DNA of 64,000 bases. It comes from a virus. Its lineage: Duplodnaviria > Heunggongvirae > Uroviricota > Caudoviricetes. Positions 8,271 through 63,062 of this stretch are shown here, in pieces. Where the stretch lies: positions 1 through 64,000 of IMG/VR virus record IMGVR_UViG_3300029906_000003; one strand, given 5' to 3'. The notes under the pieces are model-generated. The model was not told where the DNA came from. It saw only the letters and a list, made by a program, of their open reading frames with translations, and made no database searches. Numbering within the stretch: the first letter of the stretch is position 1; each line of letters starts with the position of its first letter. The translations under genes were made by a program, and so were the position numbers.

Positions 8271-8296
8271 TCAAAAGAAAGAGGTGACTTTAATAC

Positions 8297-11200
8297 ATGA
8301 CTAGCTTTTATGGAAGCGTGAATGGCGGCCAAGGGGGAAGCGGCGAAGGGGTTGATACTTCTACTCTAATGCAGAAGAATAACCCGACCTTCAATGGCAC
8401 TATCACTGGCCCCAATGCGCGCTTTACAGGAACTGTGCAGATTCCTGAACCAACAGAAGATAATCATGCAGCTACCAAAGGCTATGTCGATGCGGCCCTC
8501 GCTGATGTCGATTTAAGTGAAGTTACTACTAGAATGGACGCAATCGAAACCGCATAGGACGAGCTTGCCGCGCAGTTAGATGATAAAGTTGATGCGGAGA
8601 ATCCCGCATTTACTGGCACAGCTACTTTAGATGGAAAGAATATTGCAACTGTAGACTAGATTCCTAATATAAGTGATTTACCTTACCTAGATGAAAATAA
8701 TCCAACTTATACTGGGACTTTAACTGGCGAAAATGCGGCCTTCAGTGGAACCGTCACGGTTGCAACCCCTGCCGCAGAGGGCGAGGCCGCGAACAAAGGC
8801 TATGTGGATGCAGCCAAGACAGAACTTGAAGGAGATATTAATACTTTACAGCAGACTGTTGCAAATCAGGCTGAAACTATTAATACTCTTAATCAATAGG
8901 TAACTAATATAACAGGCGGAACAGTAGAGCTTCCTTATTTGAAGAATACTGGTGATAGCGGCACTGGCGTCTATGATTTCACGGGTGCAACTGTTAATGC
9001 GGCCGACCCAGTTGATAACAGCAATGTTGCAACTAAACACTATGTGGATTAGAAGGTTGCAAGCGCAGGTGGCACAGGTGAAGTCGTAAGCTATACTCAA
9101 GGCGATGGTATTTCTATCTCACCTGAAAATGAGATTAGCTTGTCTATTGATAGCGCGGGCGCCAATGGTTTGAAAGTTGGAGCTAATGGTCTAGGCTTAG
9201 ACCTTGCGACCGGTACAACATCAGGTGCCATGGCCGCATCAGATAAGACTGCTATTGCTTCAAATACGACTGAAATTACTAATATTAAAGATGGAACTAC
9301 TGAATTGCCATACTTAAAAGAGACTAACCCTACATATGAAGGCACTCTAATCGGTGGAGATGCGACTTTCACTGGGAGCGTCTAGATCTCAACTCCTGAC
9401 CAAGACAACGAGGCCGCGAACAAAAGCTATGTAGATACAGCTCTTGCAGAAGCTAAATCTTATACTGATAATGCAGTATCTGGAATTGCTTCTGATGAAA
9501 CAATTCAGCAAATTCAATCTGATATTGAAAATATTGAAAATGGAACTACAGTTCTTCCTTACTTGTCATCAGCTGGGGGAACAGTGACAGGTCCTATCAA
9601 GTATGGAACGAGTCCTAAAGATACGTCAGACTTGGCAAATAAAGCATATGTAGATGCTATCCATGTCCAAGCTGTCGCAGATGCTAAAAATTATACTGAT
9701 AGTGAAATTACTAATCTTGAGAATGGGACAACTGAATTACCTTATATTAAAAACAATGGAGATACTATAACAGGTAGCTATGATTTAACTGGGGCCGCAG
9801 TTACTATCGCTGAACCTGTATCTGATAATAGCCCCGCTACTAAGAAATATGTTGATGATTCTATTTCTGCTATTGATGTAAGTGAATAGATTGCGCCTTT
9901 AACTGGAAGAGTCGCTGCCGCGGAGGGTGAGATTGATACCCTGTAGATTGACGTTGAAGCTGTTGAGATTAGCGTGGCTAATATTACTAATGGGACAACT
10001 GAATTACCTTATGTAAAAGATTCTGGTGACACTGTTACTGGCACCTATAATTTTACGGGAGCTAATGTGACTATTGCCGAACCTACTGTCAGTAATAATC
10101 CTGCTACTAAGAATTACGTTGATACAAAGATAGCAAGCGCAGGCGGCTCTGGAGAAGTTGTGAGTTACACTTAGGGTAATGGTATTAATATTTCTCCTGA
10201 GAACATTATTTCTGTAGTCATTGCCGCAGATAATGCCAATGGTCTCGCTGTCGATACTAATGGTATCAAATTAAATGTGGCGACTTCTACAACAGCTGGT
10301 GCGATGAGTGGAGCTGATAAAGCTAAACTAGATGCTTCTTCTACTACTGAGCAGATGAATCAAGCTATTAGCAGTGCTATTGATGAAGCTCTTGAAGACC
10401 CGACCAAACTGCCTTTTGTAAACATTAATGGAGATACCATGCACGGTAGCCTTACTACCACTGAATTGTTTACTGATTTTGTCACTATTCGTAATGCAGG
10501 GACAGATGGTAAGACAGGTTTCCAGAATAATAGTGATACTGACCATATTAGAGTCTATGATAAAGTAGCCAACACTCTTGTTCCTATTGAAGTTGGAGAA
10601 CCTGTAAACAATCAAGATGCTTCAACCAAGAAATATGTTGACGATAAGGTTACTACTGAAACTGCTGCTAGAGCAGAAGCTATCGAAGACCTTAATGAAG
10701 CAAAAGCAGATAAGGACAATCCCACATTTACTGGCACTCTTTCAGGTGCAAACGCGACTCTTAGTGGCACATTAACTGGCAACACAGCAACCTTCTCAGG
10801 TGGAATTACTGTTCCTCTTGAGCCAGGAGCAGAAGGAAGTGCAACTTCTAAGAAGTATGTTGATGACCAGATTGCCGCCATAGATGTAAGCGAGCAGATT
10901 GAACCTTTAGCTCAAAGAGTTACTACAGCAGAAGGAGAAATTGATACTCTTCAAAGTAATATTGTCAACATCACTAATGGAACTACTGAGTTACCATATA
11001 TTGAAAAATCCAATGGCTCTTATACCGGACAGCTTTTTGGAGAAAACCTTGAGTTGTCTGGCAATATCAACGCAGCAAATGCTGAATTTACTGACAGTGT
11101 TACCGTACCAGTTACACCTATAAATGATGCGAATGCTGCGTCTAAAAAGTATGTAGATGAGAAGGTTGCTACTCTTCCCTATGTAACAAAAGAAGAGGTA

Positions 11201-14200
11201 GAAATTGCTGCTGATACTCGTGATGTAGCTAGAGCATATCGTTATACCTTCAATGATGGTCTTGACGGAACTAATTCTAATGCGGGCTTCGGCTTCATTG
11301 ACTACACTCCTGCTATTGTTACAGAGAAAGATGGAAGTACGGATTTCTCACCTTTGTATATTGGAGAGCCAGAAAAAGAGTCTCAAGCTGCTACTAAGAA
11401 GTATGTCGATGATACTATTGCGGCTGTTAATGCTCCTGAATATACTTTAGCTAAGCAGACCGCAGCAGAAGATGGATATTTCGCCACTTATTATCTGACC
11501 AAAGATAGTGTGCAAGTTGGCGAAAAGATTAATATCCCTAAAGACTACCTAGTTAAAGAAGCAGAATTGTTAGAAGTTGCGGTAACTGATACTCCTTATA
11601 GCGGAGCTGTGATTGGTGACAAGTACATTGACTTTACAATTAATACACAAGCCTCTGATGAAGATGAGCAGCATATCTACTTGCCCGTTAAGGACTTGGT
11701 TGATGTCTATACTGGCGGCAATGGTATAAACATTGACGCATCTAATATTGTAAGTGTTTAGATTGATGCGGCAAATAGTAATGGACTAGCTCTGGGTAGC
11801 GCAGGACTCAAATTAAATCTTGCGACCACGAGCGCCGCAGGAGCTATGAGTGCGGCAGATAAGACTAAATTAGATACTGCAATAAGCGAAGAACAATTAA
11901 CTGCGGTTGAGAATGAAGTTGATACTCTTCAAACAGAAGTAAATAATATTAAGAGCGGGACAACTGACCTTGGTTATTTGAAAGCAACTGACCCAAGTTA
12001 CACAGGAATTATGACTGGTGTCGATGCTACATTCAGTGGAAATGTAGTTGTTCCCGCACCTGATACAGATAATGAAGCTGCTAACAAGAGTTATGTTGAT
12101 ACCGCTATAAGTGGAGCTAAGACAGAGCTTGAAGGAGATATAAGCACTATTCAACAAACTGTTACCGCTGTGCAAGGAACTGTATCTGGTTTTGAGAGTG
12201 AAATTGAAACTCTTACACAAGCCGTAAATAATATTACTAATGGAACAACAGAACTTCCTTATATTAAGGATTCTGGAGATTCTGTTAGTGGTAATTATAG
12301 CTTCAATGGCACTGTTACTGATATTGCATCTCGTACTTCTAATCTTCAGCTTGCCAATTTAAATACTGCTCCTGACCAATGGATAGATGCTGAATATGCT
12401 AATATCAAATACAATTCTACAAATAAGAGAGTAGACTTCAGCCTCATGACCAATACTGGTCTTACTACTAATGGAGTTAAAGTCAGTGGTGCAGAGCCTG
12501 AAGGAACTAATGACTTTACTACTAAAAATTATGTAGATACTAAAGTAACAGACCTTCAGAATAACAAGCTGAATAAAAATAATCCTGCCTTTACTGGCAC
12601 TATTACAGGAGCCAATGCTAGCTTCGCTGGGACATTAACTGGCAATGCAGCAACATTTTCTGGCGGGGTTACTGTACCTCTTGAACCAGGCGAAGAAGGA
12701 AGTGCTACTTCTAAAAAGTATGTTGACAACCAGATTGCTTCTATTGATGTCAGTGAACAAATTGAGCCATTAACTCAAAGAGTCACCGCTGTAGAAGGAG
12801 AAGTTGATACCCTTCAATCTAATGTTGGAACTATTGAAACCAATATCACTAATATTACTAATGGGACAACAGAGCTTCCTTATGTTAAAAAAAGTGGAGA
12901 CACAGTAACTGGCTTGCTTACTCTTGAGCAAGGGGTAAAGAATGTCAACACAGATGACCCCTCTTATGAAACTAATCTAAGTTCTAATGGATTTACTTTT
13001 AAACATGATTCAACAGTAAAAATGCTTAGCCTTCAGGGCAACAAATTAAAATTCTCAGACGCAACTGCTCAAACTTTAGTTCCAGTTGAAGTAGGAACGC
13101 CTATTGAAGATAAAGACGCAGCTACTAAGGGATATGTAGATGAAAATACTTCTCCTTTGTATACGAAGTCTAGCTTTGGTGTAAATATATTTGGATAGCC
13201 CCTAGGCGAAGAAAGCCTAGGAGTTTTCGTAGATAATGTTAAGACTGAAAAGCCTTTATATGGATTAACTCTGTATGGAGACTCGTCTCAAGAACATTAC
13301 GAAGGATATAACTTATTAAATCCTGATAATATTACTGAGAATGTAGGATATAGTGATACTGGTACATCAGAGACTAAACAAGGCGTCTTCAGTATAAAGT
13401 TTGTATTTGAAGAAGGTCAGGATTATGCGTTTGTTCTTGCATGGGATATCAGTAAGAATTTTGAAGAATACTTGTCTCAATTAAATATATTCTATTATAA
13501 TGCTGGACAATCTTTTGTTAGGAAGGAAACCGTCTATTTGGGAAGCCGATATGAGCAATTATTCAATAGTTATACCAACTCTGCTCATTCTGGATATGTA
13601 TATATTGAATTGACTCCTAAAGAGAGTTTTACCCTTACAAAAGAATTTATTACGAATAACTTTATGATTCTTTTAATTGAAAACCGAGCTTTCCCTTTTG
13701 AACCTTATACAGGTAAAAATCCAGCTCCTTCTCTTATATATCCAACTGATATAACAGGTATAGAAGAGAATCCTGTATTATTTGATTATGGACAATTATA
13801 TACGCAAAATAACAGTGGCTCTTCTTCAATTGATTTTGAAAATTTAGGCAAGATACATTTGCCTACTATAACTTCTCCTTTGTATGGAGGTTATCTGGGA
13901 AATATGAGCACTTATAGCGAATCGCCCAATATTATTATGAATTCAATTGCTAGAGCTTCATTTGATAGTGCTACAATATGTAATAATGGTTTAGAAGACT
14001 GTATTTATTATATAGACAAACGTGATTATAAAAAGGGAAAGGATATTAGAGTATTTAAGACTTTAACTATTAATCCTACAGAAGTAAGCGATTACATTAC
14101 TGATGGCGGGGCTTTAGGAAATGGTCATAAGTTTATTCTTAATGTAAATGATAATGTTAAGTTTGAAAATTATAGTTTGAATGACTTAAATGAAAAAGAA

Positions 14201-16123
14201 GAAAAGCTTTTAGTGGTTGTTCCCGTGAATGGTTTTGTTGACTACAATGAAATTGATAGATGGCATCAAAGAATCTGGTGTAACTATTTACAATCTGCTG
14301 ATTTTGAATTTGTTAGTAACCTTGAAGAAGAAAATCCAGAACCAACTACTTCTTATGATACAATTTATTATGATTATGATATTCAAAAGGGTGACGACCC
14401 TTCTAATATAACAATCTCTTTGTCAAATATTGCCATTTATACTACTAGAGCAACAACAGTGGAAGAATTTGCGGCCTTTATTACGACTCCAATGCAAATT
14501 GTATACGCTTTGGATGAACCTGTTGAAACAGATATTCCAGAAGATGAATTACTTAACTTAGATAATATCCATATTAAGAATAATAGCTTATATACTATAC
14601 TGTCAGAAGATATAAACGAAGAGAATCTAAATAGTAATACCGTTAAGATTATTGACTTCGATATTACTTATTATAGAGTTCCTTCTTCCAATGGTGACAT
14701 ATATCCAATTGAAAATCTTAATACTCTGGAGCTCTTTAGCTATAAGGCATTGGCTACTTCCAGTGATAATTCAATAGAAATAAATAATATTAAAGATAAG
14801 CTGACTATTGCAAACCGTGCTGTTTTTATTGGCGATTCAATTTCTCAGGGATATGATAATGATGATTATAGTTTCGTTGATATTTTTAAAAAGAATGACG
14901 ATTTCTCTGGTGTTACTAAATTAGCTGTTGGAGGAGCTACATTAGGTCCTTATCAGATAGTTTCTGAAGCTTCTGGTTATAGTTGTCTTGAACAAATTCA
15001 AGCAAATGAATCTGCGATTTCAGGTGCCAATTTCTGCTTCTTACAGTTCTGCATTAATGATGTAAAATGCTTGGTTTCTAAGAATATCCAGATTGGAACT
15101 CCTTCTGAGACTAGTGCAATAACTACTGTTTGTGGCTATTTGAAGAAGTGTATTGAATTACTGTATACTTATAATCCTACTATTTCTATTGTATTTATTA
15201 ATCTCGCAACTAATGAGCCTGTAATTGATATGATATGGGACAATGAAGTAAATAGCGATGCTGATAAGTATAAATTCTATCATAAAGTTTGGAATCTCAG
15301 CATAGCAGAAGTTCTTGAACAGTATAATATTCCTATGATTAATATCTTTGATTGGACAAGTATAAATGCAAATAACTTTAGCAATTATACAGTTCATACA
15401 GCAGATGGTACTCATTTGAATACAGCTGGAAATACTCTTGCTTATTATCGTATTAAGAATGCTCTTTGGAATGAATCTGAGAAGTCTTATCCAACTCAGC
15501 CAAAGAATTTAATCATTGATGCAACATTAGGCGGAAATATTGGAGTAGAGAATATTGAAAGAATTAAAAACGCTTTTGACAATAATATTCAAGTCTTCTT
15601 CAATCTGAAAGAAAACGAAGATAGTACTGAAGATTTAATTGTCCCTGTTAATTTTAGTTCTGATGTTGGATATGGTTCTCATTTCACATTGGCTCAGGAT
15701 AGCAAATTGTATTTGTATGAATTATAGACAAATACCGTTGGCCAAATTACTTATACATCTTATAATATAACTGATATGAAGGCTAATATTGACATTGCTT
15801 TAGAGGCTGGAACAGAGAAGCTTGAAACTCTTAAGTCTTATTCTGGTGCTACTTATACAATAGATTCTATGAAGCCAAATACTTTGTACAACTTACGCAA
15901 TGTTGACTTACCAACTATTACTGTTACAGCTTTTGAGGCACCAAGTAGTACAGAATATGTTTCTACATATCATATGATTTTCCAGAGTAATGTTACTCCT
16001 GTAATTCTTAATCTGCCAAGTAGTGTTATTTATCCAGAAGATTTTACAATAGAAACTAAGCATATCTATGAAATTAATATCATGGATAATCTGTTAAGCT
16101 ATCAGAGCTGGCCTATGGAATAA
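8297..16123 (+). CDS. giant tail-fiber-like protein (about 2600 aa) with about 13 NGTTELPY-type repeats and a C-terminal SGNH/GDSL esterase domain. It contains at least 12 in-frame TAG codons.
   Basis: Track ORFs 8297-8557, 9140-9385, 9563-9889, 9974-10174, 10277-11761, 11846-13198, 13472-15727 and 15776-16123 are all in one frame and separated only by TAG. Repeats NITNGTTELPY[IV]K, ATKKYVD and AIDVSEQIEPL recur. GDSL motif AVFIGDSISQGY. RBS AAAGAGGTGA. Single gene 8297-15727 versus fusion with 15776-16123 is uncertain. Confidence 0.7.
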
Positions 16124-20035: not shown

Positions 20036-20175
20036 AAGTTATTTCTCCTTTTGTTTTCTTATGTATAAATTATATCATAAAAAAGGAAAATAATCAATAA
20101 GCAATTTTATTTTTTAAACAATAGAAAAAAGAAAAAGAGACGCGGCAGCTCGTGCCTTACGTCTCTAGTTGCGTT

Positions 20176-20249
20176 GGAGCAGGATACCAGACTCGAACTG
20201 GCGCTGTATGATTGGAAGTCATAAATGCTACCACTACACCAATCCTGCA
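20176..20249 (-). tRNA. tRNA-Gly(UCC)
   Basis: cloverleaf folded by hand: acceptor GCAGGAT/ATCCTGC, anticodon stem TATGA/TCATA with loop CTTCCAA, T-loop TTCGAGT, U73, CCA encoded. Confidence 0.8.
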
Positions 20250-20254
20250 TATGT

Positions 20255-20328
20255 GGAGCCGCCACGAAGAATCGAACTCCGATACGCTCATTACAAGTGA
20301 GCAGTTCTACCGTTAAACTATGGCGGCA
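20255..20328 (-). tRNA. tRNA-Thr(UGU)
   Basis: acceptor GCCGCCA/TGGCGGC, anticodon stem GCTCA/TGAGC, loop CTTGTAA, T-loop TTCGATT. Confidence 0.85.
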
Positions 20329-20406
20329 TAATTACTAGAGACTAAAAATAAATGGAGGTTTTTTCAGAACCGATTTATAAAATAAAATTTGCTGTGAGTC
20401 TCTAAT

Positions 20407-20482
20407 GGAGCACATGGGAATCGAACCCATCTGACTTCTTCCTTGCAAGGGAAGCGAACACCCCATGCATTCCCGTACCCCA
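20407..20482 (-). tRNA. tRNA-Ala(UGC)
   Basis: acceptor GGGGTAC/GTGCTCC with G3:U70, anticodon stem CTTCC/GGAAG, loop CTTGCAA, T-arm ATGGG-TTCGATT-CCCAT; CCA not encoded. Confidence 0.7.
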
Positions 20483-20485
20483 TAT

Positions 20486-20561
20486 GGTTGCAACTCGGAG
20501 ACTTGAACTCCAATCCTTCGATTATCAGTCGAAAGTTTTAACCGGTTAAACTAAGTCGCAT
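20486..20561 (-). tRNA. tRNA-Ile(GAU)
   Basis: anticodon stem TTCGA/TCGAA, loop CTGATAA, T-loop TTCAAGT, CCA. Confidence 0.85.
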
Positions 20562-20636
20562 TATAAAAACTAGAGAGCTTCAAAAATAAATCCAAGTCTT
20601 GTTATTTGATACCTCTTGCTGTAACTCTCTAATGGT

Positions 20637-20725
20637 GGTGCGCCCTGGGGGAATCGAACCCTCACAATGCGATAGCGTCTGAAGATTAGAAGTCAACTGT
20701 TTTATCCAATTAAACTAAGAGCGCT
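20637..20725 (-). tRNA. tRNA-like, type II architecture, anticodon arm does not pair (probable pseudo-tRNA)
   Basis: good acceptor GCGCTCT/AGGGCGC, D-arm GTTT..AAAC and T-arm, but no pairing around ..GTTGACTTCTAATCTTCAG.. Confidence 0.3.
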
Positions 20726-20958
20726 TAAATATAATTGATGAAAGAATTATTTTTGAACAGTCTTACTAATTCTGCGCTATCTACATCATTCAATCGGTTA
20801 GCAAGTTTATTAAGAATCTTAACAGTGCTCTCATTGTAATCTCCTTTATTAAGGATCTTAATAATTTCATCTTTTGCCGCAGAACTGTCCATAATGTACA
20901 AATTTAAAAGATTATCACTTGTAATTTTAGGATAAATAGTCATTCTATTCCCCTTCAA
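20725..20958 (-). CDS. hypothetical small protein
   Basis: ORF track. Confidence 0.4.
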   Translation of the reverse strand: MKGNRMTIYPKITSDNLLNLYIMDSSAAKDEIIKILNKGDYNESTVKILNKLANRLNDVDSAELVRLFKNNSFINYI

Positions 20959-21028
20959 GGCATAATATATTATTTTTTATTTTTCCAGAATAATAATTAA
21001 AAATTGCTGTATATGCCTTCATGGCTGA

Positions 21029-21664
21029 TTATAAATATCTCCATTCATATCCGTAAGCAGTTTTTCTTTTCCCTCTACAAGCAGCAGATATATGACTAAT
21101 GACTCCATTTATTTTTGAAAAAGTAATTCCTTCTTCGATTAAATATCTTGCAGCATCACTCATAGATAAGAATGTTCTTACGGGTAAATTATTTTTATAA
21201 GCAATAACTTTTTTAGAGCAGATTTCTTTCTGAAAAGAGTTATCTTTTATTCTAGGAACTCCTCTCGATTCTAAAATATTATATACTGAATCTACACAAA
21301 TATTCAAAGTATCTGCTACTTTTACACAGTTGTGTAAATTTTGATAAGTTTCAACAACTAAATCATAATCAATATATTTCTTTCCATCTCCTCCTAAAGT
21401 TGCATTATACCCGTTATGGTAAGAACCATAATATTGAATCCAATATCGCTCTCTCTCTTCTGAATTATCTGTTTCTTCAATCAGCTCAATATGGAAATGT
21501 TCTGGTCCATATTTATTCATTGCTGCATATAAAGGGCGCTTTTCGCATTTTTCTCTTTTATAGTCACAAAGATGCTCTTTAAATCTTGATTGAATACTCT
21601 ATTCTGTTTTTCCAATATAGATTTTCTAATTAATGTCGTTTGTAATTTTGTAGATGTATGCCAT
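21029..21664 (-). CDS. GIY-YIG homing endonuclease (I-TevI-like) with 2 in-frame TAG codons inside the GIY-YIG motif
   Basis: Track ORF 21029-21520 extended upstream gives MAYIYKITNDIN[TAG]KIYIGKTE[TAG]SIQSRFKEH. The ERERYWIQYYGS..NGYNATLGG region and the C-terminal ..AYGYEWRYL match I-TevI family. RBS AAGGAG. Confidence 0.75.
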
Positions 21665-21756
21665 ACTTAAATAGCTCCTTTCTATATGGTTCATTCTGTT
21701 AAAATAATAAAATATTTTTATCCAGGCGCACCACGTGGAGGAAAACCTTTGCGCCC

Positions 21757-21852
21757 TCGAGGCGGTGGGATTCGAACCCACATACTAGGGGTCAGAGCCC
21801 TAGGCTGTGAATGTTTTAGAGACATTTGCTGAACCAATTTAGCTACGCCTCG
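21757..21852 (-). tRNA. suppressor tRNA, anticodon CUA (reads UAG), long variable arm (type II), A73
   Basis: acceptor CGAGGCG/CGCCTCG, D-stem GCT/AGC, anticodon stem AATGT/ACATT with loop CTCTAAA (CUA at 34-36), variable arm hairpin CTAGGG-CTCTGAC-CCCTAG, T-arm GTGGG-TTCGAAT-CCCAC; CCA not encoded. Confidence 0.7.
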
Positions 21853-21991
21853 TTACGATACGAGAGGCAATTTACTTATGGTAATACAATCTTTTTTCCT
21901 TGTACTTTATCGCATATATTTGCTGTCTGTCTCTCTTTGTATTTATATTATATCATAATTTTAATTTTATGTCAATAGAATTTTTTAAATA

Positions 21992-22183
21992 TTAAAGAAC
22001 TCCGCGCCGATGAAGTTCATGGCAAATGATATTATACCTTGAAACAATAGCAGAGAAATTAATATACTTGGCTTTTACAGACTCTTCAATTACATTCCAC
22101 AGTTTATCTCGTTCTCTCATTAAACGTTCAGTCGAAAGCTCATTAGGAAAATGAGTCTCAACATTGTACATCTTTTCGTTCAT
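21992..22183 (-). CDS. hypothetical small protein
   Basis: ORF track. Confidence 0.4.
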   Translation of the reverse strand: MNEKMYNVETHFPNELSTERLMRERDKLWNVIEESVKAKYINFSAIVSRYNIICHELHRRGVL

Positions 22184-22216
22184 GCGGCCTCAGTCCTTTC
22201 TTTACAGTATTGAGTA

Positions 22217-22292
22217 TGGTCGGAACGGCGAGACTCGGACTCGCTGCATCCAGATCCCAAATCTGGCATTCTACCAGTTGAATTACGTCCCG
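22217..22292 (-). tRNA. tRNA-Pro(UGG)
   Basis: anticodon stem CCAGA/TCTGG, loop TTTGGGA, D-arm ATTC..GAAT, CCA. Confidence 0.85.
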
Positions 22293-22312
22293 TTTTAGAC
22301 GGCTCCTGCCGC

Positions 22313-22484
22313 ATTATCTTCGCTGTAGGAACCAAATATCTCTCTTCCTTTGTCTCTTGATATTATCTATTTCTTTAGATAAACTACTTATTTTATTTTC
22401 TATTCTTACAATATCTGAAATGATAATTGGAGGATTATTTATAGATTCTAATTCTACTATTTTATCATCTAATTGTTCATACAT
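22313..22484 (-). CDS. hypothetical small coiled-coil protein (56 aa)
   Basis: manual ORF MYEQLDDKIVELESINNPP... Confidence 0.3.
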
Positions 22485-22511
22485 AGTATCACCTGCTCTT
22501 TATCATTCATA

Positions 22512-22587
22512 TGGGCAGAAGGAAGAGAATTGAACTCTTACTATCAAATCCACAATTTGAGGTGCTAACCATTACACTACCAACTGC
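22512..22587 (-). tRNA. tRNA-His(GUG)
   Basis: extra G-1 opposite C73, anticodon stem TCAAA/TTTGA, loop TTGTGGA; two U-U mismatches in the acceptor stem. Confidence 0.7.
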
Positions 22588-22603
22588 ATATTATATTTTT
22601 TAG

Positions 22604-22679
22604 TGGTGCGCTCGGAGAGATTTGAACTCTCGACCAACGGATTAAAGGTCCGCGACTCTTCCAGCTGAGTTACGAGCGC
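22604..22679 (-). tRNA. tRNA-Lys(UUU)
   Basis: acceptor GCGCTCG/CGAGCGC, anticodon loop CCTTTAA (unusual C33), T-loop TTCAAAT, CCA. Confidence 0.75.
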
Positions 22680-22694
22680 ATAGAAAAGAGAAGA

Positions 22695-23231
22695 TTAGCT
22701 CTTCTCTGTTTGATTTAGAATAATTTTAAATATATCTTCCGCTGTTTTAATAGTCTTACTAGCTTTTTCTACTTCCTGAGCGGTTTTTGCTTTCATATCT
22801 TTAAGAAATTCTGCTTGAACCGCGCATTGTTTATCTCTTTCCTCTTGTTCTTTTTTGTCCTTGAAATATTTATCTACTTTGTCGTAGTCTATTGCGGTCT
22901 TTAATTTAATATATTCGTAATTTGGTTCTGAAGAACTCAGATATACACTTATATTAGTATATTGTTGTTTTTTCTTCTTTTCAAATTCTTCATATGACTT
23001 ATCTGAAATATAAATTAAATATTTATGGCCAGGAGTTCTTTTTAAAAGAAAATTTTTAGGATAAAGCTCATGGAATAGAATATATTGGTTTGCTGTTAAT
23101 TCTATACAAGATGCCGAACTAGGAGGACTCATAAATTCATGTATAGCGGATATTTTTGCTAATTTATCAACAATAAAAGCAGTAGCAAAAAACGTACAGA
23201 GAAAAATTAGAACAACTAACATTTTAACCAT
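22695..23231 (-). CDS. hypothetical membrane-anchored protein
   Basis: ORF track; N-terminal TM helix. Confidence 0.55.
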   Translation of the reverse strand: MVKMLVVLIFLCTFFATAFIVDKLAKISAIHEFMSPPSSASCIELTANQYILFHELYPKNFLLKRTPGHKYLIYISDKSYEEFEKKKKQQYTNISVYLSSSEPNYEYIKLKTAIDYDKVDKYFKDKKEQEERDKQCAVQAEFLKDMKAKTAQEVEKASKTIKTAEDIFKIILNQTEKS

Positions 23232-23248
23232 ATATTACCTTCCTTTTG

Positions 23249-23322
23249 TGGAGCACACGGTTGGAGTCGAACCAACTTTCACAGATTTGCAGCCTGCTAT
23301 CTAGCCGTCTGATTCCGTGCGC
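23249..23322 (-). tRNA. tRNA-Cys(GCA)
   Basis: anticodon stem GCAGG/TCTGT (two G-U pairs), loop CTGCAAA, T-loop TTCGACT, U73, CCA. Confidence 0.7.
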
Positions 23323-23617
23323 ATATAAATACTCCCCAATATTTTGTAGTCCGTATCAGACTATTATCCGAATTGTTCTCCTTGGGGAAGGCAAACTCCT
23401 TGAGATTTGCTCAAGTATAGCCAACTATTAATATAGTTGTCAAATAATAAAGCAGGTGTGCTATTACGCTAAAAAATATTATTTTTACCTATTGGCACTT
23501 CATTATTTTATAGGACATTATTTCATGTAGCCTATTATATAATTTTTTGCACCTAATAGAATAATATTTACTCATTATAGGATAGCTGCTTCTAAGCTTA
23601 CCTTCCTGCTTTGCATA

Positions 23618-23709
23618 TGGCGCCGGTTAGAAGATTCGAACTTCTGGAGGGGAATTTCCCCTCAAGGGTTTAGCAAACCCCTGCACTCGACCAACTATGC
23701 GAAACCGGC
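23618..23709 (-). tRNA. tRNA-Ser(GCU)
   Basis: type II: acceptor GCCGGTT/AACCGGC, anticodon loop TTGCTAA, long variable arm GAGGGG-AAATT-CCCCTC, G73, CCA. Confidence 0.85.
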
Positions 23710-23723
23710 AAAAAAAAACAAGA

Positions 23724-23799
23724 CAGTATGTATATACTAATGCGTTACCATTACGCTATATTCGCTATTAATGGCGCGAACATTCGGATTTGAACCGAA
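23724..23799 (-). other. permuted or fragmented tRNA-like element: a 3' half (T-arm, acceptor 3' strand, CCA) lies 6 nt upstream of a matching 5' half (acceptor, D-arm, hairpin)
   Basis: sense order TTCGG-TTCAAAT-CCGAA TGTTCGC G CCA ttaata GCGAATA TA GCGT-AATGGTA-ACGC ...; the two acceptor strands are complementary. Confidence 0.3.
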
Positions 23800-24142: not shown

Positions 24143-24150
24143 AAAATAAT

Positions 24151-27493: not shown

Positions 27494-27569
27494 TGGTTGC
27501 GATGGAAGGATTTAAACCTTCGAATGGAGGAGTCAAAGTCCTCTGCCTTCATCACTTGGCTACACCGCA
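27494..27569 (-). tRNA. tRNA-Gln(UUG)
   Basis: U1:A72, anticodon stem GAGGA/TCCTC, loop CTTTGAC, T-arm GAAGG-TTTAAAT-CCTTC, CCA. Confidence 0.85.
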
Positions 27570-28373: not shown

Positions 28374-28374
28374 A

Positions 28375-44454: not shown

Positions 44455-45119
44455 TTGAGTGTACAAACATATTCATTAAGGACACAAGGAGATAATTTTT
44501 TAAGTAAGAATTTTAGAGTGCGGGAGTTTAAGTGCAATGATGGTTCGGACTCAATCTTAATTGACAGTGACTTAGTTAATGTTTTACAAAAAGTGCGTGA
44601 CCATTTTAATTAGCCCGTAACCATAAATAGTGCGTATAGAACACAATCATATAATCGAAAAGTGGGCGGAAGCAGCTCTAGTCAACATTGTAAGGGGACT
44701 GCCGCAGATATAGTTGTTAAAAATATTAATCCTTTGGCTGTTGCTTTATACATTGTTTCTTTACCCGAGTTTGCGGCAAAAGGTGGAGTTGGATATTATT
44801 CAAGAGCTAACTTAAAAAGCGGCTTTGTCCATGTAGACACGCGCAGCTATGTAAGTAGATGGATTAGTAAGGCTGGAACATCATATTTAAGCACTTCTAA
44901 AATTATGCCTACAATTAAACGCGGTCAGAGAGATGCCACTTCAAAAGGTAGAATTAGTTACGCTGTAACTGTATTACAACGTCACTTAAAGCTAACTGCT
45001 GATGGCATCTTTGGGACTAATACAGAAACAAAAGTAAAAGAATTTTAGAAACAAGCAGGTCTTACAGTTGATGGAATAGTAGGACAAAAAACTTGGGAAA
45101 AATTAGGAGGATTATAATT
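44455..45119 (+). CDS. endolysin: peptidase M15 (VanY/L-Ala-D-Glu peptidase type) plus two PG_binding_1 repeats, with 2 in-frame TAG codons
   Basis: FRVREFKC..DSDLVNVLQKVRDHFN[TAG]PVTINSAYR..SQHCKGTAADI; C-terminal LQRHLKLTADGIFGTNT..[TAG]..QAGLTVDGIVGQKTW; TTG start proposed. Confidence 0.65.
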
Positions 45120-60195: not shown

Positions 60196-61294
60196 TAAAG
60201 ACCAAATAAAAAATTCTTTAAGTATCAATCAAATCTTTGATTTTTTATCAGAGTATGGCGGCGAGCCAATAGTGAAAGATAGTAATACTATTATTAGTAA
60301 AACTATCTGTCATAATGCAATAGAAGAAATAAATGATGCAAGTTATAAGTTATATTATTATGACAACACTCATTTGTTTCATTGTTATACTGGATGTGCA
60401 GAGCCTAGCTTTGATATATACGATTTAATGACTAAAATCAAAAATATTAATGGCAATGACCAATGGAAAATGGCTAATTCTGTTTTTTATATAGCAGAGT
60501 ATTTTGGTTATTCTCAATTAGATTCAACTTTAAGCCAAGAAGAAAAAGTTTTACCAGATTGGAAAATCCTTAAAGATTATGATAAAATAAATTTAGAAAT
60601 AGATGAAAAACAAATTGTTGAATTAAAAATCTATGATGAAAAAGTTCTTAGATATTTGCCTAGGCCGCATATCTTAAATTGGGAAAGAGAAGGAATAACT
60701 AAACAGGTCATGCAAAAGAATAATATTTGTTATGACCCTTTAAGTCAAGGGATAGTTATTCCACATTATAATATTGAGAATCAATTAATTGGAATAAGAG
60801 AAAGAACACTAATTAAAGATAAAGAAATAGAAGGAAAATATAAACCAGCTTTTTTGAATGGGCAATTATATAATCATCCATTAGGATTTAATTTATATAA
60901 TATAAACAATAGCAAAAATAACATAAAACTAATGCAGAAAGCTATTATCTTTGAGTCAGAGAAATCAACTTTGTTAATGCAATCATATTTTCCTGGAGCT
61001 GATATTAGTGTAGCGTGCTGCGGCAGCAATTTAACTAATTATCAATTCAAGTTATTGTTATCTCTTGGCGTAAATGAAGTTTCAATAGCTTTTGATAGGC
61101 AATTTAAGAAAGTTGGAGATGAAGAATTTAAAAGATGGACAAAAAAGCTGGAGAGTATTAATAATAAATATAAAGGCTTTTGTCGTATTACTTTTCTGTT
61201 TGATAAAAAAGGACTATTAAATTACAAAGATAGTCCAATAGATTGCGGGCCAGATATATTTATGAAATTATACACAGAAAGGATTGCTATGTAA
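60188..61294 (+). CDS. DNA primase (zinc-binding plus TOPRIM)
   Basis: CHNAI..HLFHCYTGC zinc finger; TOPRIM IIFESEKS. Confidence 0.7.
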   Translation: MLDKDQIKNSLSINQIFDFLSEYGGEPIVKDSNTIISKTICHNAIEEINDASYKLYYYDNTHLFHCYTGCAEPSFDIYDLMTKIKNINGNDQWKMANSVFYIAEYFGYSQLDSTLSQEEKVLPDWKILKDYDKINLEIDEKQIVELKIYDEKVLRYLPRPHILNWEREGITKQVMQKNNICYDPLSQGIVIPHYNIENQLIGIRERTLIKDKEIEGKYKPAFLNGQLYNHPLGFNLYNINNSKNNIKLMQKAIIFESEKSTLLMQSYFPGADISVACCGSNLTNYQFKLLLSLGVNEVSIAFDRQFKKVGDEEFKRWTKKLESINNKYKGFCRITFLFDKKGLLNYKDSPIDCGPDIFMKLYTERIAM

Positions 61295-61298
61295 GAAA

Positions 61299-63062
61299 AT
61301 GGGTTTTAACTTTAAACTAATTAATCCTAGAAATGAATTATATACAATAGAAGAATAGATATTAACGAATCGTGGAATCCCTTATGAATTAGTTAGCTCT
61401 TATTTGGATAGAAATAACTTTGATGACATTGCTGAACCAGAAACTTTAGGAGAAGAATTGTTGGAGAAGGCGGCTAAAGCAATAGGAGAATGTATTGAAC
61501 GCGGCGGCCGCACCCTTGTCATAGTGGATTGCGATGTTGATGGGTATACCTCTAGTGCTTTACTTGTCAATTATTTAAATCGTATTGCCCCCACATGGGC
61601 TAAGGACAATCTCTTTTATTATCATCATACCTCTAAACAACATGGTCTGGGAGATTGTATAGATGAAGCGTTGAAATATGATTTAGTTATTTGTCCAGAT
61701 AGTGCATCTTCTGATGTAAATGAGCATAAGAGATTATATGATGCAGGAATACCTTTAATCGTATTAGACCACCACTTGACAGACATCGGAGAAAATACTT
61801 TAAACTATCCTTATGCTATTATTATAAATAGCTAGTGCAATGGATACAAAAATAAAGATTTATCTGGCGTAGGAGTTGTTTGGCAGTTCTGTAGATATTG
61901 TGATAAAAGAATGAACCGCAATTATGCAGATGATTATTTAGACTTGGCCGCGGTTGGACTAGTAGGAGATATGATGGATTTGAAGTCTATGGAGACGAAG
62001 GAACTAGTCCAATTAGGGCTTGGCCGCATCCATAATCCTTTTCTTGTTGGTATGTGTGAGAAGAACGCTTTCTCAATGAAGGGTGCAGTTAATCCATTTA
62101 CCGTAACATTTTATATTGTGCCTTTTGTTAATGCGATAACTAGAAGCGGAACTCAAGAGGAAAAAGAATTAATTTTTGATTCAATGCTTGAGTCAAAAGC
62201 TAATAATAAGATTCTTTCAACAAAAAGAGGTCATAAGTTAGGAGAACAAGAAACAATCCTTACGCAAGCTCTTAGGGTAGTTACAAATGTTAAAAAACGT
62301 CAAACTGATGCTCAAGATGCTAGTGTAGAATATCTAGAGCGCATTATCGCAGAGAAAGGACTGGCCGCGCACAAAACTTTAATTATCACTTTAGAAAATA
62401 ATAATAAGGTTGAACCAGAAGTTAGAGGTTTAATTGCTAATAAATTAATGGCTAAATATTGCAGGCCTTGTTGCATTTTAACGTTGCGGAATGACATCTA
62501 TGAAGGTAGTGCAAGAGGATATGAAAAAGGTAGTGTGAAAGATTTCAAAAATATATGCGAACAAACTGGCTTGATTGAATACGCGCAAGGTCATATGTCC
62601 GCCTTTGGTCTTAGTGTGGCTAAAGAAAATTTAGCTAAATTTATTGAGACATTAGATGATATTCTTGTAGATTTTACCCCTGATTCTTCTTACTTTGTTG
62701 ATTTTATTTATGAGAATAAAGATATTCCTGATAAAGACATTCTGACTATTGCTTCCATGAATGATTTGTGGGGGCAAGGAGTAGCAGAACCTTATATTGC
62801 AATTATTCATTTAAAATTGACTAAAGATATGATAACACTAATGTCGCCTGGCGCGCATCCTACACTAAAGTTTTCTGTCAATAAAATAGGTATTATTAAA
62901 TTTAAAGCTAGTCAAGAAGAATATGAACAGTTAATAGCTGATGGATACGTTGAACTTAATATTATTGGTAGATGCGCAAAAAATGAATGGCATGGAAGAA
63001 TTTCACCTCAAATACTTGTAACTGATTATGAAATAATTAGTAAATGTGATTATGATTTTTGA
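61299..63062 (+). CDS. recJ: RecJ-like DHH-family 5'-3' ssDNA exonuclease with 2 in-frame TAG codons
   Basis: One frame from ATG 61299 runs through the TAGs at about 61365 and 61836 and joins track ORFs 61404-61835 and 61911-63062. Motifs ILTNRGI, VIVDCDVDGYTS, VLDHHLTD. Confidence 0.7.

What the first reader, a model, noticed from the sequence alone, without database searches (positions are those of the whole stretch)
21757..21852. CUA-anticodon suppressor tRNA with a type II (long-arm) architecture
The hand-folded cloverleaf is perfect apart from the expected features. It has a 7-bp acceptor, anticodon stem AATGT/ACATT with loop CUCUAAA (CUA at 34-36), a T-arm identical to this phage's tRNA-Ser(UGA) T-arm, and A73. 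It also carries a 28-nt variable region with a 6-bp hairpin. This is the obvious decoder of the in-frame UAG codons. Gln tRNAs are normally type I, whereas a long arm with A73 points toward a Leu- or Tyr-like identity. The paralog evidence favours Gln, so the charged amino acid is open.
Basis: seen in the sequence. Interest (0 to 1): 0.85.

Follow-up and report, generated by a model that had tools for sequence, protein, structure and literature searches.

The report
Amber suppressor tRNA carrying spare Gln anticodon loop
This phage gene is a real stop-codon-reading (UAG) tRNA whose unusually long extra arm is a copy of the glutamine tRNA anticodon loop, a design that recurs in many phage suppressor tRNAs and may be how they still get loaded with the right amino acid.

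Summary
Window 21757-21852 (minus strand) is a 96-nt tRNA gene (Rfam 56.7 bits, threshold 29) with anticodon CUA, A73 and a 28-nt variable region holding a 6-bp hairpin. ARAGORN's "Phe-AAA" label is a register error. The phage uses in-frame TAG, and evidence that avoids database circularity says TAG means Gln.

The extra-arm loop, CUCUGAC, differs at one base from the anticodon loop of the phage's own tRNA-Gln (CUUUGAC), and that tRNA-Gln also has A73.

In motif-blind samples of phage contigs, 32 of 37 long-arm CUA tRNAs carry YUGA in the extra arm, against 13 of 180 Ser/Leu/Tyr arms (p about 1e-22). Stems covary while the loop U-G is invariant. As predicted, long-arm opal suppressors (UCA) carry the Trp loop (UCCA in 25 of 28), and long-arm tRNA-Ile(UAU) carries GAU (13 of 15).

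Best explanation: a Gln-inserting amber suppressor whose extra arm is a surrogate anticodon loop for the charging enzyme. That functional step is inferred, not shown. I found no description of it in the searchable literature. The window's copy is an atypical member (C1-G72, A3-U70, no encoded CCA).

The parts
21757..21852 (-). Amber suppressor tRNA gene (96 nt, anticodon CUA, discriminator A73 at 21757, no encoded CCA)
   Evidence: Rfam RF00005 56.7 bits against a threshold of 29. ARAGORN gives the same coordinates. The MFE fold is the cloverleaf.
21810..21826 (-). Anticodon arm: stem AAUGU/ACAUU, loop CUCUAAA; anticodon CUA at 21819-21817
   Evidence: Rfam alignment. The CUA register evaluates to -29.9 kcal/mol and ARAGORN's AAA register to -17.8.
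21782..21809 (-). 28-nt variable region (tRNA positions 44-71): 6-nt 5' linker, hairpin, 3-nt 3' linker
   Evidence: Sequence and fold.
21785..21803 (-). Extra-arm hairpin, the 'anticodon replica': stem CUAGGG/CCCUAG, 7-nt loop CUCUGAC at 21797-21791, with CUG at 21795-21793
   Evidence: The loop differs at one base from the phage's own tRNA-Gln anticodon loop CUUUGAC. The same loop sits on different stems in L121 and L464. Loop U-G is invariant in 31 aligned class members. Closing pairs are 97%, 97% and 74% paired with 3-5 pair types.
21765..21781 (-). T arm GUGGG-UUCGAAU-CCCAC
   Evidence: Identical to the T arm of tRNA-Ser(UGA) at 24056-24143.
21947..21975 (-). Consensus sigma-70-type promoter (TTGACA, 17 nt, TG-extended TATAAT; 12 of 12 matches), about 95 nt upstream of the tRNA 5' end
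   Evidence: It is preceded by a terminator-like hairpin at 22018-21997. This is a consensus match only; transcription was not shown.
27494..27569 (-). The phage's ordinary tRNA-Gln(UUG): U1-A72, A73, anticodon loop CUUUGAC (the comparator for the replica loop)
8294..16123 (+). Giant fibre-like gene, 2609 codons with 11 in-frame TAG (a client of the suppressor)
   Evidence: Called as one 2608-aa gene on the source contigs. Sister-repeat analysis gives Q opposite TAG.
44455..45117 (+). Peptidase M15 / peptidoglycan-binding gene with 2 in-frame TAG; one lies in the conserved 'FQ' of the PG-binding domain
   Evidence: In JGI/NCBI-sourced homologs this column is Q in 7 of 8.
61266..63062 (+). RecJ-like exonuclease gene with 2 in-frame TAG
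   Evidence: JGI homologs have Q in 3 of 4 at both columns. TAGs in a relative's RecJ gene align to window CAA three times and GAA once.
21029..21662 (-). GIY-YIG homing-endonuclease-like gene immediately downstream of the tRNA; it contains in-frame TAG itself
   Evidence: Reading of the sequence, and a 211-aa GIY-YIG gene called on the source contigs.

Best explanation
The gene encodes an amber suppressor tRNA. It is probably transcribed from its own consensus promoter, pairs with UAG through a canonical CUA anticodon arm, and inserts glutamine at the in-frame TAG codons of this phage's genes, which lie mostly in structural and homing-endonuclease genes.

Its long 'variable arm' is not a Leu/Ser/Tyr-type arm. 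It is a hairpin whose 7-nt loop (C-U-C-U-G-A-C) replicates a tRNA-Gln anticodon loop (Y32-U33-C/U34-U35-G36-A37-N38).

The proposed mechanism is inferred, not shown. Changing the anticodon from CUG/UUG to CUA removes G36, one of the nucleotides that the Gln-charging enzyme reads. The replica loop, tethered at the top of the anticodon stem, offers the missing anticodon identity nucleotides to the host enzyme (GlnRS, or the GluRS/amidotransferase route), so the suppressor is still charged with Gln.

The same design appears in opal suppressors (a Trp CCA loop) and in tRNA-Ile(UAU) (a GAU loop), so the window's tRNA belongs to a general class of phage tRNAs that carry a surrogate anticodon loop. 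Within that class it is atypical. Its acceptor (C1-G72, A3-U70, A73) lacks most acceptor-stem Gln determinants, and it has the longest and most anticodon-arm-like replica (6 bp plus a 7-nt loop).

My confidence by step: real CUA tRNA about 0.97; decodes TAG as Gln about 0.8; extra arm is a selected Gln-anticodon-loop replica about 0.9; the replica acts in aminoacylation about 0.5.
For: SHOWN
1. It is a real tRNA with anticodon CUA.
2. TAG is read through. The longest ORF grows from 842 to 2609 codons, and the source contigs have these genes called through TAG.
3. TAG means Gln, on evidence that avoids circularity:
- JGI/NCBI-sourced homologs have Q in 7 of 8, 3 of 4 and 3 of 4 at three TAG columns.
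- TAGs in a relative's gene align to window CAA three times and GAA once.
- In sister repeats of the fibre gene, Q is 7 of 20 against a 2.6% background, p = 5e-7.
4. The replica loop CUCUGAC compares with the phage's own tRNA-Gln loop CUUUGAC.
5. Class-level evidence, from search patterns that fixed only the anticodon loop and the T loop:
- 32 of 37 long-arm CUA tRNAs have YUGA, against 13 of 180 Ser/Leu/Tyr arms, Fisher p = 1e-22, with a shuffle expectation of 0.15.
- The variants are CUG or UUG, the two Gln anticodons.
- In a MAFFT alignment of 31 members, the only invariant columns not fixed by the search are U8, A14, G18 and the loop U-G.
- There are 22 distinct stems among 32 sequences. 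Closing pairs are 97%, 97% and 74% paired with 3-5 pair types, against 10-71% in slid registers.
- Replica stems are no more similar to their own anticodon stems than to those of other tRNAs (0.13 against 0.19), so the arm is not a young duplication.
6. A prediction was tested and met. Long-arm UCA suppressors carry UCCA in 25 of 28, with loop N-U-C-C-A-A-A and Trp-like acceptors A1-U72/G73. Long-arm Ile(UAU) tRNAs carry GAU in 13 of 15. The motif-by-class matrix is diagonal. Long-arm ochre tRNAs, for which no phage recoding is known, show none.
7. Relatives of this phage (54-57% DUF2828 identity) carry a long-arm CUA tRNA with U1-A72, G2-C71, G3-C70, G10 and G73.

FROM THE LITERATURE
- Phage CUA tRNAs are charged by E. 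coli and Prevotella GlnRS in vitro (10.1101/2025.10.30.685624).
- TAG to Gln in phages was validated by proteomics (PMC9523058, abstract).
Against: - No experiment or structure shows that any synthetase touches the extra arm. In the standard GlnRS complex the anticodon-binding domains sit far from the variable region (my own knowledge), so a non-standard docking or a folded-back arm is required.
- Replica stems vary from 2 to 6 bp, which is hard to reconcile with one rigid geometry.
- Many phage CUA suppressors have short arms and no replica (54 of 70 in the unbiased sample), so the arm is not essential for amber suppression.
- The window's tRNA lacks the weak 1-72 pair seen in 28 of 30 class members, and lacks G3-C70. 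If the host uses the GluRS/GatCAB route, C1-G72 should be rejected by the amidotransferase (PMC9976931).
- One tandem paralog (L464:476-573) has UUA, not YUG, in its replica loop.
- The class members were partly defined by the motif they share. Positions 34-37 are therefore selected; positions 32-33, the stems and the control rates are not.
- Only 64 kb of a genome of at least 140 kb was seen, so another suppressor could exist elsewhere.
Confidence: 0.6

Rival explanations
1. The replica arm is an evolutionary scar. These suppressors arose by duplicating the anticodon arm inside a Gln (or Trp, or Ile) tRNA gene. One copy mutated to the new anticodon and the other remains as a tolerated, functionless extra arm. 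The tRNA is still a Gln suppressor, charged through U35 and other determinants.
For: The replica loop is nearly identical to the decoding loop (CUCUGAC against CUCUAAA). The 3' linker of 5-7 nt in 26 of 31 members resembles a former variable loop. Short-arm CUA suppressors work without a replica (10.1101/2025.10.30.685624).
Against: Loop U35-G36 is invariant and A37 is 30 of 31, while stems, linkers and acceptor stems have diverged completely. Replica stems show no residual similarity to their own anticodon stems. The same outcome in three identity classes would need repeated neutral retention.
Confidence: 0.15
2. The replica loop is functional but serves a partner other than the synthetase. 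Candidates are a phage or host factor that licenses the suppressor, a decoy against anticodon-targeting nucleases, a tRNA-modification enzyme, or pairing with a T-box leader to raise host glnS/trpS/ileS expression.
For: Selection on the loop is clear, but nothing identifies the partner. The geometry for synthetase binding is awkward (my own knowledge).
Against: What the three motifs (YUG, CCA, GAU) share with their tRNA bodies is the cognate amino-acid identity. Gln, Trp and Ile identity all include anticodon nucleotides (PMC9976931). No candidate factor was found in the window. T-box recognition needs the anticodon at the normal distance from the elbow (my own knowledge).
Confidence: 0.15
3. 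One reading: the long arm and A73 give the tRNA a class II identity (Tyr like supF, or Leu or Ser), so UAG is read as Tyr, Leu or Ser.
For: A73, U35 and a long arm match bacterial Tyr determinants, and A73 matches Leu (PMC9976931). One phage CUA tRNA was charged by a Prevotella TyrRS (10.1101/2025.10.30.685624). Seven of 37 long-arm phage CUA tRNAs do look like ordinary class II tRNAs.
Against: At TAG columns, Y is 6 of 106 and 1 of 119, and L and S are absent from the leading residues. Sister repeats give Y 0, L 1 and S 1 of 20. C1-G72 is not the bacterial Tyr pair, and the Ser discriminator G73 is absent (PMC9976931). The arm belongs to the YUGA class, not the Ser/Leu/Tyr type, and has a 6-nt 5' linker unlike classical arms.
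Confidence: 0.06
4. Two-headed tRNA: the molecule can fold so that either hairpin serves as the anticodon arm. It is charged in the 'CUG' fold as an ordinary tRNA-Gln and then decodes UAG (or both CAG and UAG) after refolding.
For: In the window and in L121/L464 the replica is a 5-6 bp stem with a 7-nt loop, which is the format of an anticodon arm, followed by a 3-4 nt linker the size of a normal variable loop. Removing the CUA stem costs only 1.6 kcal/mol.
Against: Most class members have only 2-3 bp replica stems, too short for an anticodon arm. No natural tRNA is known with a hairpin inserted at position 26 (my own knowledge).
Confidence: 0.04

Closest known systems
Phage-encoded Sup-CUA tRNAs of TAG-to-Gln ('code 15') phages: crAss-like, Lak, phAss-1 and others
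   Same: A CUA anticodon, encoded in a tRNA cluster of a large phage whose structural genes contain in-frame TAG that aligns with Gln. Charging is presumed to be by host GlnRS (10.1101/2021.08.26.457843; PMC10607447; PMC9523058; 10.1101/2025.10.30.685624).
   Different: None of these papers, as far as the searchable text shows, describes a long extra arm or an anticodon-loop replica. This phage has no DNA-level relative among deposited phages.
E. coli supE (tRNA-Gln CUG to CUA) and su+7 (tRNA-Trp CCA to CUA, charged with Gln)
   Same: A single-base anticodon change creates an amber suppressor that GlnRS charges because of U35 (PMC9976931). The relatives' suppressor body is closest to the same phage's tRNA-Trp with the 1-72 pair flipped, and the window's anticodon loop differs from its own tRNA-Trp loop by one base.
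   Different: The classical suppressors are short-armed and have nothing that restores G36. Here a complete YUG loop is displayed in an added arm.
Class II tRNAs and class II tRNAs with 'wrong' anticodons: nematode nev-tRNAs (PMC3333845), allo-tRNAs (PMC5389517)
   Same: [quoted passage not shown]
   Different: In those tRNAs the arm itself confers Leu or Ser charging whatever the anticodon, and its loop sequence is not conserved. Here the loop sequence is the conserved part, it matches the cognate anticodon, the flanking linkers are atypical (1-6 nt on the 5' side, 5-7 nt on the 3' side in most members; 3 nt in the window), and the 7/5 acceptor/T geometry is standard.
Anticodon-arm mimics outside tRNA that synthetases read: E. 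coli thrS operator, yeast aaRS mRNAs, viral tRNA-like structures
   Same: A hairpin displaying the cognate anticodon triplet is recognised by the synthetase's anticodon-binding domain (PMC9976931). This shows that such loops can be read out of their normal context.
   Different: Those mimics are in mRNAs or viral RNA ends and serve regulation or 3'-end charging. Here the mimic would sit inside a decoding tRNA next to a different, working anticodon.
tRNA-Pyl (ARAGORN's default label for CUA tRNAs)
   Same: A CUA anticodon reading UAG.
   Different: This tRNA has the universal G18-G19, a standard T loop (UUCGAAU), an 8-nt D loop and a 28-nt variable region. tRNA-Pyl lacks these conserved loops and has a 3-nt variable loop (my own knowledge).

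Membership tests
tRNA (Rfam RF00005) | Covariance-model score at or above the gathering threshold | tested here: met
   56.7 bits against 29; E 1.4e-9 and 4.6e-12.
tRNA (Rfam RF00005) | Cloverleaf with U8, A14, G18-G19, U33, T loop UUCGAAU and a 7-bp acceptor stem | tested here: met
   One A13.C22 mismatch in the D stem.
Amber suppressor of a TAG-recoded phage | Anticodon CUA in a canonical 5-bp stem with a 7-nt loop | tested here: met
   ARAGORN's AAA register is 12 kcal/mol worse.
Amber suppressor of a TAG-recoded phage | In-frame TAG codons in genuine genes of the same genome | tested here: met
   a 2609-codon fibre gene with 11 TAG, plus RecJ, M15 peptidase, a sigma factor and GIY-YIG genes.
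Amber suppressor of a TAG-recoded phage | TAG positions correspond to one amino acid (Gln) in standard-code homologs | tested here: met
   The raw homolog counts are inflated because public databases translate relatives' TAG as Q.
Amber suppressor of a TAG-recoded phage | The tRNA is expressed and aminoacylated during infection | not testable with these tools
   Only a consensus promoter match 95 nt upstream.
Class II tRNA of Tyr identity (bacterial) | Long variable arm, A73, U35 | tested here: met
Class II tRNA of Tyr identity (bacterial) | G1-C72 first pair (the bacterial determinant; C1-G72 is archaeal/eukaryal; PMC9976931) | tested here: not met
   The tRNA has C1-G72.
Class II tRNA of Tyr, Leu or Ser identity | The decoded codon corresponds to Tyr, Leu or Ser in homologs | tested here: not met
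Class II tRNA of Ser identity | G73 discriminator | tested here: not met
   A73. The phage's own tRNA-Ser(UGA) has G73.
E. coli-type tRNA-Gln identity set (PMC9976931) | U35 | tested here: met
   CUA anticodon.
E. coli-type tRNA-Gln identity set (PMC9976931) | G36 in the anticodon | tested here: not met
   Position 36 is A in the decoding loop. A full C-U-G-A is present in the extra-arm loop instead.
E. coli-type tRNA-Gln identity set (PMC9976931) | Weak 1-72 pair (U1-A72) and G3-C70 | tested here: not met
   C1-G72 and A3-U70. The relatives' suppressor does meet both.
E. coli-type tRNA-Gln identity set (PMC9976931) | G2-C71 and the G10-C25 pair | tested here: met
E. coli-type tRNA-Gln identity set (PMC9976931) | Discriminator G73 | tested here: not met
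   A73. However, this phage's own tRNA-Gln(UUG) and 7 of 30 replica-arm suppressors also have A73.
Replica-arm suppressor class (defined here) | A hairpin in the variable region whose loop reads Y-U-(C/U)-U-G-A-N | tested here: met
   CUAGGG[CUCUGAC]CCCUAG. The same loop occurs in L121 and L464 on different stems.
Replica-arm suppressor class (defined here) | Weak or mismatched 1-72 pair (28 of 30 members) | tested here: not met
   C1-G72.
tRNA-Pyl | 3-nt variable loop, small D loop, absence of G18-G19 and the T-loop consensus (my own knowledge) | tested here: not met
   One search shows the standard D and T loops and a 28-nt variable region.

The most novel reading that the evidence does not exclude
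Phages that change the meaning of a codon solve the synthetase-recognition problem by building a second, non-decoding anticodon loop into the tRNA's variable region. The host GlnRS, TrpRS or IleRS reads this surrogate loop (YUG, CCA, GAU) while the ribosome reads the real one (CUA, UCA, UAU). That would be a previously unrecognised class of tRNA identity element and a natural, modular way to uncouple charging from decoding. The window's tRNA, whose acceptor stem is not Gln-like, would be a case where identity rests largely on the surrogate loop.
Probability: 0.45. Interest if true: 0.92.

Novelty: new variant of a known kind. Interest (0 to 1): 0.82.

Why it matters
Phage stop-codon recoding is well documented, but how host synthetases charge the suppressors has stayed an acknowledged open question (Borges et al. 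preprint). A conserved copy of the cognate anticodon loop in the extra arm, seen independently for Gln, Trp and Ile, gives a concrete mechanism that can be tested directly by mutating one loop and measuring charging.

If it holds:
- It adds a new kind of identity element to tRNA biology.
- It explains why some phage suppressors are oversized, and why tRNA finders mislabel or miss them (here as Phe-AAA or Pyl).
- It offers a natural design principle for engineering tRNAs in which decoding and charging are uncoupled.

For annotation, the replica motif predicts which amino acid a suppressor inserts. It also serves as a warning that public protein databases already translate TAG as Q in such phages, which makes naive homolog counts circular.

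Tried and rejected
- **ARAGORN's tRNA-Phe(AAA) call:** rejected as a register error.
- **Close relatives among deposited phages:** none. Only a 216-bp ligase match to Clostridium phage c-st, and no match for the tRNA.
- **Strict DNA patterns for the tRNA in viral contigs:** an exact anticodon-arm pattern found nothing, so I relaxed the patterns.
- **Raw homolog counts at TAG columns** (Q 96/106, 109/119, 117/119): set aside as partly circular after I found that the 'Q' in relative P0130 is itself a TAG.
- **Solved RecJ structures:** uninformative at the TAG column.
- **Origin of the window tRNA's body:** no convincing parent. The best in-window matches are Trp-CCA and Ser-UGA at 75%, and no close body exists in the sample.
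- **tRNA-Pyl identity:** rejected on structure.
- **Young-duplication origin of the replica arm:** not supported.
- **A replica in ochre (UUA) long-arm tRNAs:** none among 8.
- **Replicas in the window's other oversized tRNAs** (Arg-UCU, Glu-UUC): none obvious.
- **A synthetase or release factor in the window:** none among the 10 largest ORFs. Smaller ORFs and the rest of the genome were not scanned.
- **Metagenome scan for the window's exact loop variant:** one contig only.
- **Bacterial genome scan:** 12 good long-arm CUA tRNAs, of which 4 contain YUGA (Bacillota and Acutalibacteraceae MAGs, an untitled locus, and a doubtful one in Alistipes). That is too few to assign a host.
- **MAFFT alignment for formal pair counting:** it split the helix flanks, so I counted pairs in a structure-anchored register instead of using count of structure pairs.
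- **Literature:** five full-text searches and eight papers checked found no description of the replica arm. Subscription-only papers were not searchable.
Full report
**1. The observation**

ARAGORN and the Rfam tRNA model both place a tRNA gene at exactly 21757-21852 on the minus strand. The Rfam score is 56.7 bits against a gathering threshold of 29, with E 1.4e-9 over the whole window. The minimum-free-energy fold is a five-helix cloverleaf (-29.9 kcal/mol, z = -2.9).

Read from the sequence, the tRNA is:
CGAGGCG-UA-GCUA-AAUUGGUU-CAGC-A-AAUGU-CUCUAAA-ACAUU-CACAGC-CUAGGG-CUCUGAC-CCCUAG-UAU-GUGGG-UUCGAAU-CCCAC-CGCCUCG-A.

There are two corrections:
- The D stem has an A13.C22 mismatch, and no CCA is encoded.
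- ARAGORN names the gene tRNA-Phe(AAA). Its drawing slides the anticodon stem by two bases and creates two mismatches and a broken D stem. That register is 12 kcal/mol worse than the CUA register, so it is an artefact.

**2. Context**

The window is part of a phage genome of at least 140 kb that is known only from metagenomes. It has no DNA-level relative among deposited phages. It carries 25 tRNA or tRNA-like genes and a ROOL RNA between about 20.1 and 30.6 kb.

Reading through TAG, but not through TGA, fuses fragments into long genes. The longest ORF grows from 842 to 2609 codons, with 11 in-frame TAG. The public gene calls on the source contigs already read through TAG. TAG is frequent in the fibre gene and in two GIY-YIG genes, and absent from the gyrase, ligase and DnaB genes.

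A 12-of-12 consensus sigma-70-type promoter with an extended -10 lies about 95 nt upstream of the tRNA, just after a terminator-like hairpin. This is a consensus match, not proof of transcription.

**3. What TAG means**

Columns opposite four TAG codons in two conserved proteins are Q in 96/106, 109/119 and 117/119 homologs and K in the fourth. I then found that a 55%-identical relative's 'Q' at one of these columns is itself a TAG that the database translated as Q. These counts are therefore partly circular.

Three lines of evidence avoid that problem:
- JGI/NCBI-sourced homologs, which I assumed were called with the standard code, have Q in 7 of 8 (the conserved FQ of the peptidoglycan-binding domain), 3 of 4 and 3 of 4.
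- Four TAGs in the relative's RecJ gene fall on ordinary window codons: CAA three times and GAA once.
- Inside the window's own fibre gene, residues opposite TAG in sister repeats are Q in 7 of 20 cases against a 2.6% background (p = 5e-7). Tyr appears 0 times, and Leu and Ser once each.

TAG therefore most probably encodes Gln, as in other recoded phages (10.1101/2021.08.26.457843; PMC9523058).

**4. What the long arm is**

Relatives of this phage (54-57% identity in a neighbouring DUF2828 protein) carry a CUA tRNA of 89 nt including its encoded CCA, in a similar position upstream of that gene. Its acceptor is UGGGGUG/CACCCCA with G73 and CCA, which gives U1-A72, G2-C71, G3-C70 and G10. That is the Gln acceptor set, yet the tRNA has a 19-nt variable region. 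So the long arm does not mark a Leu/Ser/Tyr body in this group.

The extra-arm loops looked alike: window CUCUGAC, relatives UUCUGAG. They also resemble the anticodon loop of the window's own tRNA-Gln(UUG), CUUUGAC.

To test this without bias, I scanned IMG/VR with patterns that fix only the anticodon loop (CUCUAAA) and the T loop, and kept sequences with a sound cloverleaf.
- In the first scan, 16 of 70 unique CUA tRNAs had variable regions of 16 nt or more, and 14 of these contained CUGA.
- With a second scan, 37 long-arm tRNAs were in hand: 25 with CUGA, 4 with UUGA in the hairpin loop (UUG is the other Gln anticodon) and 1 with CUGC. Seven looked like ordinary class II tRNAs.
- By simple motif count, YUGA occurs in 32 of 37 long-arm CUA tRNAs. 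It occurs in 13 of 180 Ser/Leu/Tyr extra arms from the same contigs. Shuffles of the same regions give 0.15. Fisher p = 1e-22.

The structure around the motif is also supported:
- In a MAFFT alignment of 31 members including the window, the only invariant columns not imposed by the search pattern are U8, A14, G18 and the U-G of the extra-arm loop.
- In a 7-nt-loop register the loop reads Y32 (27/31), U33 (23/31), C/U34, U35 (31/31), G36 (31/31), A37 (30/31), N38.
- The three closing pairs are 97%, 97% and 74% paired with 5, 3 and 4 pair types. Slid registers give 10-71%.
- There are 22 distinct stems among 32 sequences.
- Replica stems are no more similar to their own anticodon stems than to those of other tRNAs (0.13 against 0.19). 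The arm is therefore old, and its loop is under selection.
- L121 and L464 carry the window's exact loop, CUCUGAC, on the stem CACGG/CCGUG instead of CUAGGG/CCCUAG, with canonical Gln-type acceptors.

**5. A prediction, tested**

If the arm displays the cognate anticodon, then opal suppressors of TGA-to-Trp phages should display CCA. They do:
- Of 28 long-arm UCA tRNAs, 26 contain CCA and 25 contain UCCA. The typical form is stem-[CUCCAAA]-stem with U33 in 24/25 and A37 in 24/25, covarying stems, and Trp-like A1-U72/G73 acceptors.
- Long-arm tRNA-Ile(UAU), first seen as by-catch, carries GAU in 13 of 15 tRNAs from an unbiased scan, all with unique arms.
- The motif-by-class matrix is diagonal. 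CUA: 0.86 / 0.05 / 0.14. UCA: 0 / 0.89 / 0.18. Ile-UAU: 0.20 / 0.20 / 0.73. Ser/Leu/Tyr: 0.07 / 0.01 / 0.07.
- Long-arm ochre tRNAs are few (8) and show no replica.
- Other oversized tRNAs (Met, Lys, His and others; the window's Arg-UCU and Glu-UUC) show no copy of their own anticodon.

**6. Mechanism**

*Shown.* The tRNA, its anticodon, TAG read-through, the TAG-Gln correspondence, and a selected Gln-anticodon-loop replica in the extra arm as a class property.

*Inferred.* The replica supplies the anticodon identity nucleotides, above all G36, that the Gln-charging enzyme needs and that the CUA anticodon lacks. [quoted passage not shown] Phage CUA tRNAs are charged by E. coli and Prevotella GlnRS in vitro (10.1101/2025.10.30.685624).

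*Speculative.* The arm is tethered at nucleotide 44, at the top of the anticodon stem, and is followed by a single-stranded linker (5-7 nt in 26 of 31 class members; 3 nt in the window). A 3-6 bp hairpin folded back along the anticodon stem could bring its loop near the true anticodon loop.

*Weaknesses.*
- No binding or kinetic data exist.
- Replica stem lengths vary.
- Most phage CUA suppressors have no replica.
- One tandem paralog has UUA in the replica loop.
- The window's own tRNA lacks the weak 1-72 pair and G3-C70. It has C1-G72, A3-U70 and A73, although the phage's own tRNA-Gln also has A73. If the host makes Gln-tRNA through GluRS and GatCAB, C1-G72 should be an obstacle (PMC9976931).

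The window's copy may therefore depend more heavily on its unusually complete replica (6 bp plus a 7-nt loop), or it may be charged differently.

**7. Comparison with what is known**

The tRNA works like the Sup-CUA tRNAs of code-15 phages and like E. coli supE and su+7. In the relatives the suppressor body is closest to the same phage's tRNA-Trp, with the first pair flipped (79% against 70% to tRNA-Gln).

It is not a class II tRNA in the Leu/Ser/Tyr sense, nor a nev-tRNA or allo-tRNA (PMC3333845, PMC5389517), where the arm confers Leu or Ser charging and its loop is not conserved. It is not tRNA-Pyl.

The nearest conceptual precedents for a synthetase reading an out-of-place anticodon hairpin are the thrS operator and similar mRNA mimics (PMC9976931).

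Five full-text searches, and reading of the key recoding papers, a review of non-canonical tRNAs and the 2023 tRNA identity review, found no description of an anticodon-loop replica in a tRNA extra arm. Subscription-only literature could not be searched.

**8. Verdict**

- The tRNA itself is a new variant of a known kind (a phage amber suppressor).
- The class-level regularity that it led to, a cognate anticodon-loop replica in the extra arm of Gln, Trp and Ile 'wrong-anticodon' phage tRNAs, appears to be unreported and can be tested directly.

Interest is 0.82. This is held back by the lack of any functional data, by the atypical acceptor of the window's copy, and by the chance that the pattern is described in literature I could not search.

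Noticed in passing
IMG/VR loci, e.g. L271, L265, L278, L234, L239: Long-arm opal-suppressor tRNAs (anticodon UCA, 92-95 nt) carry an extra-arm hairpin whose loop is the tRNA-Trp anticodon loop (N-U-C-C-A-A-A). UCCA is present in 25 of 28, the stems covary, and the acceptors are Trp-like (A1-U72, G73).
   Followed up: yes
IMG/VR loci, e.g. L601, L630, L693, L698, L680: Long-arm tRNA-Ile(UAU) genes (87-100 nt, all with A73) carry an extra-arm loop containing GAU, the standard Ile anticodon (CAGAUUA, CUGAUUU, UAGAUAA): 13 of 15 in an unbiased scan. The window's own Ile-UAU (30508-30584) is short-armed.
   Followed up: yes
window 25918-26506 (-); also L008:2931-3555: A full-length ROOL RNA (Rfam RF03087, 303 bits) sits inside the tRNA array. 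A relative at 57% protein identity has one too (300 bits).
   Followed up: no
window 20636-20724 (-) and 27824-27916 (-): tRNA-Arg(UCU) (89 nt) and tRNA-Glu(UUC) (93 nt, 21-nt variable region with a 5-bp hairpin) are oversized, although these isotypes normally have short variable loops. No copy of a cognate anticodon is evident in their extra arms. The Arg tRNA's anticodon stem has two mismatches as drawn.
   Followed up: partly
window 23252-23322 (-) and 23871-23933 (-): Two tRNA-like genes found only by Rfam, not by ARAGORN: a tRNA-Cys(GCA) (41.9 bits), and a hit matching model positions 6-65 with a GAU loop (56.8 bits) that lacks a good acceptor stem. No tRNA-Met was found in the window.
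   Followed up: no
window 21029-21662 (-) and 53263-54237 (+): Two GIY-YIG endonuclease-like genes are rich in in-frame TAG. One lies directly downstream of the suppressor tRNA. The other has 11 TAG in 324 codons.
   Followed up: partly
Public protein database entries P0121-P0240, e.g. P0130 / L007:1001-2776: Proteins of recoded relatives are stored with TAG already translated as Q: 6 TAGs in the gene for P0130. Counting Q at TAG columns in database homologs is therefore circular unless the codons are checked.
   Followed up: yes
L464:476-573 and 724-820: Two long-arm CUA tRNAs lie in tandem on one metagenome contig. One has replica loop CUCUGAC, identical to the window's. The other has UCUUAAC, with UUA in place of YUG, which is an exception to the rule or a decaying copy.
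   Followed up: partly
L011:4390-4463: ARAGORN reports a tRNA with a 4-base 'anticodon' (UAAA) in an enlarged loop in a relative of this phage. Rfam scores it at 37.9 bits.
   Followed up: no
window 20175-30584 (-): Most tRNA genes in the array encode their 3' CCA. The suppressor and tRNA-Ser(UGA), which share an identical T arm, do not. A few others, such as Ala-UGC and the Rfam-only genes, were not clearly scored.
   Followed up: no
L009:5040-5128 compared with L009:3607-3680: In relatives, the long-arm CUA suppressor's acceptor and D arm are nearly identical to the same phage's tRNA-Trp(CCA), except that the 1-72 pair is flipped from A-U to U-A. This suggests a Trp-to-Gln identity switch like E. 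coli su+7.
   Followed up: partly
IMG/VR loci L071, L119, L209, L186, L183: A minority of long-arm CUA tRNAs have no replica loop and look like ordinary class II bodies (GGGC... acceptors with A73, or Ser-like with G73). Some phages may therefore read TAG as Tyr, Leu or Ser.
   Followed up: no
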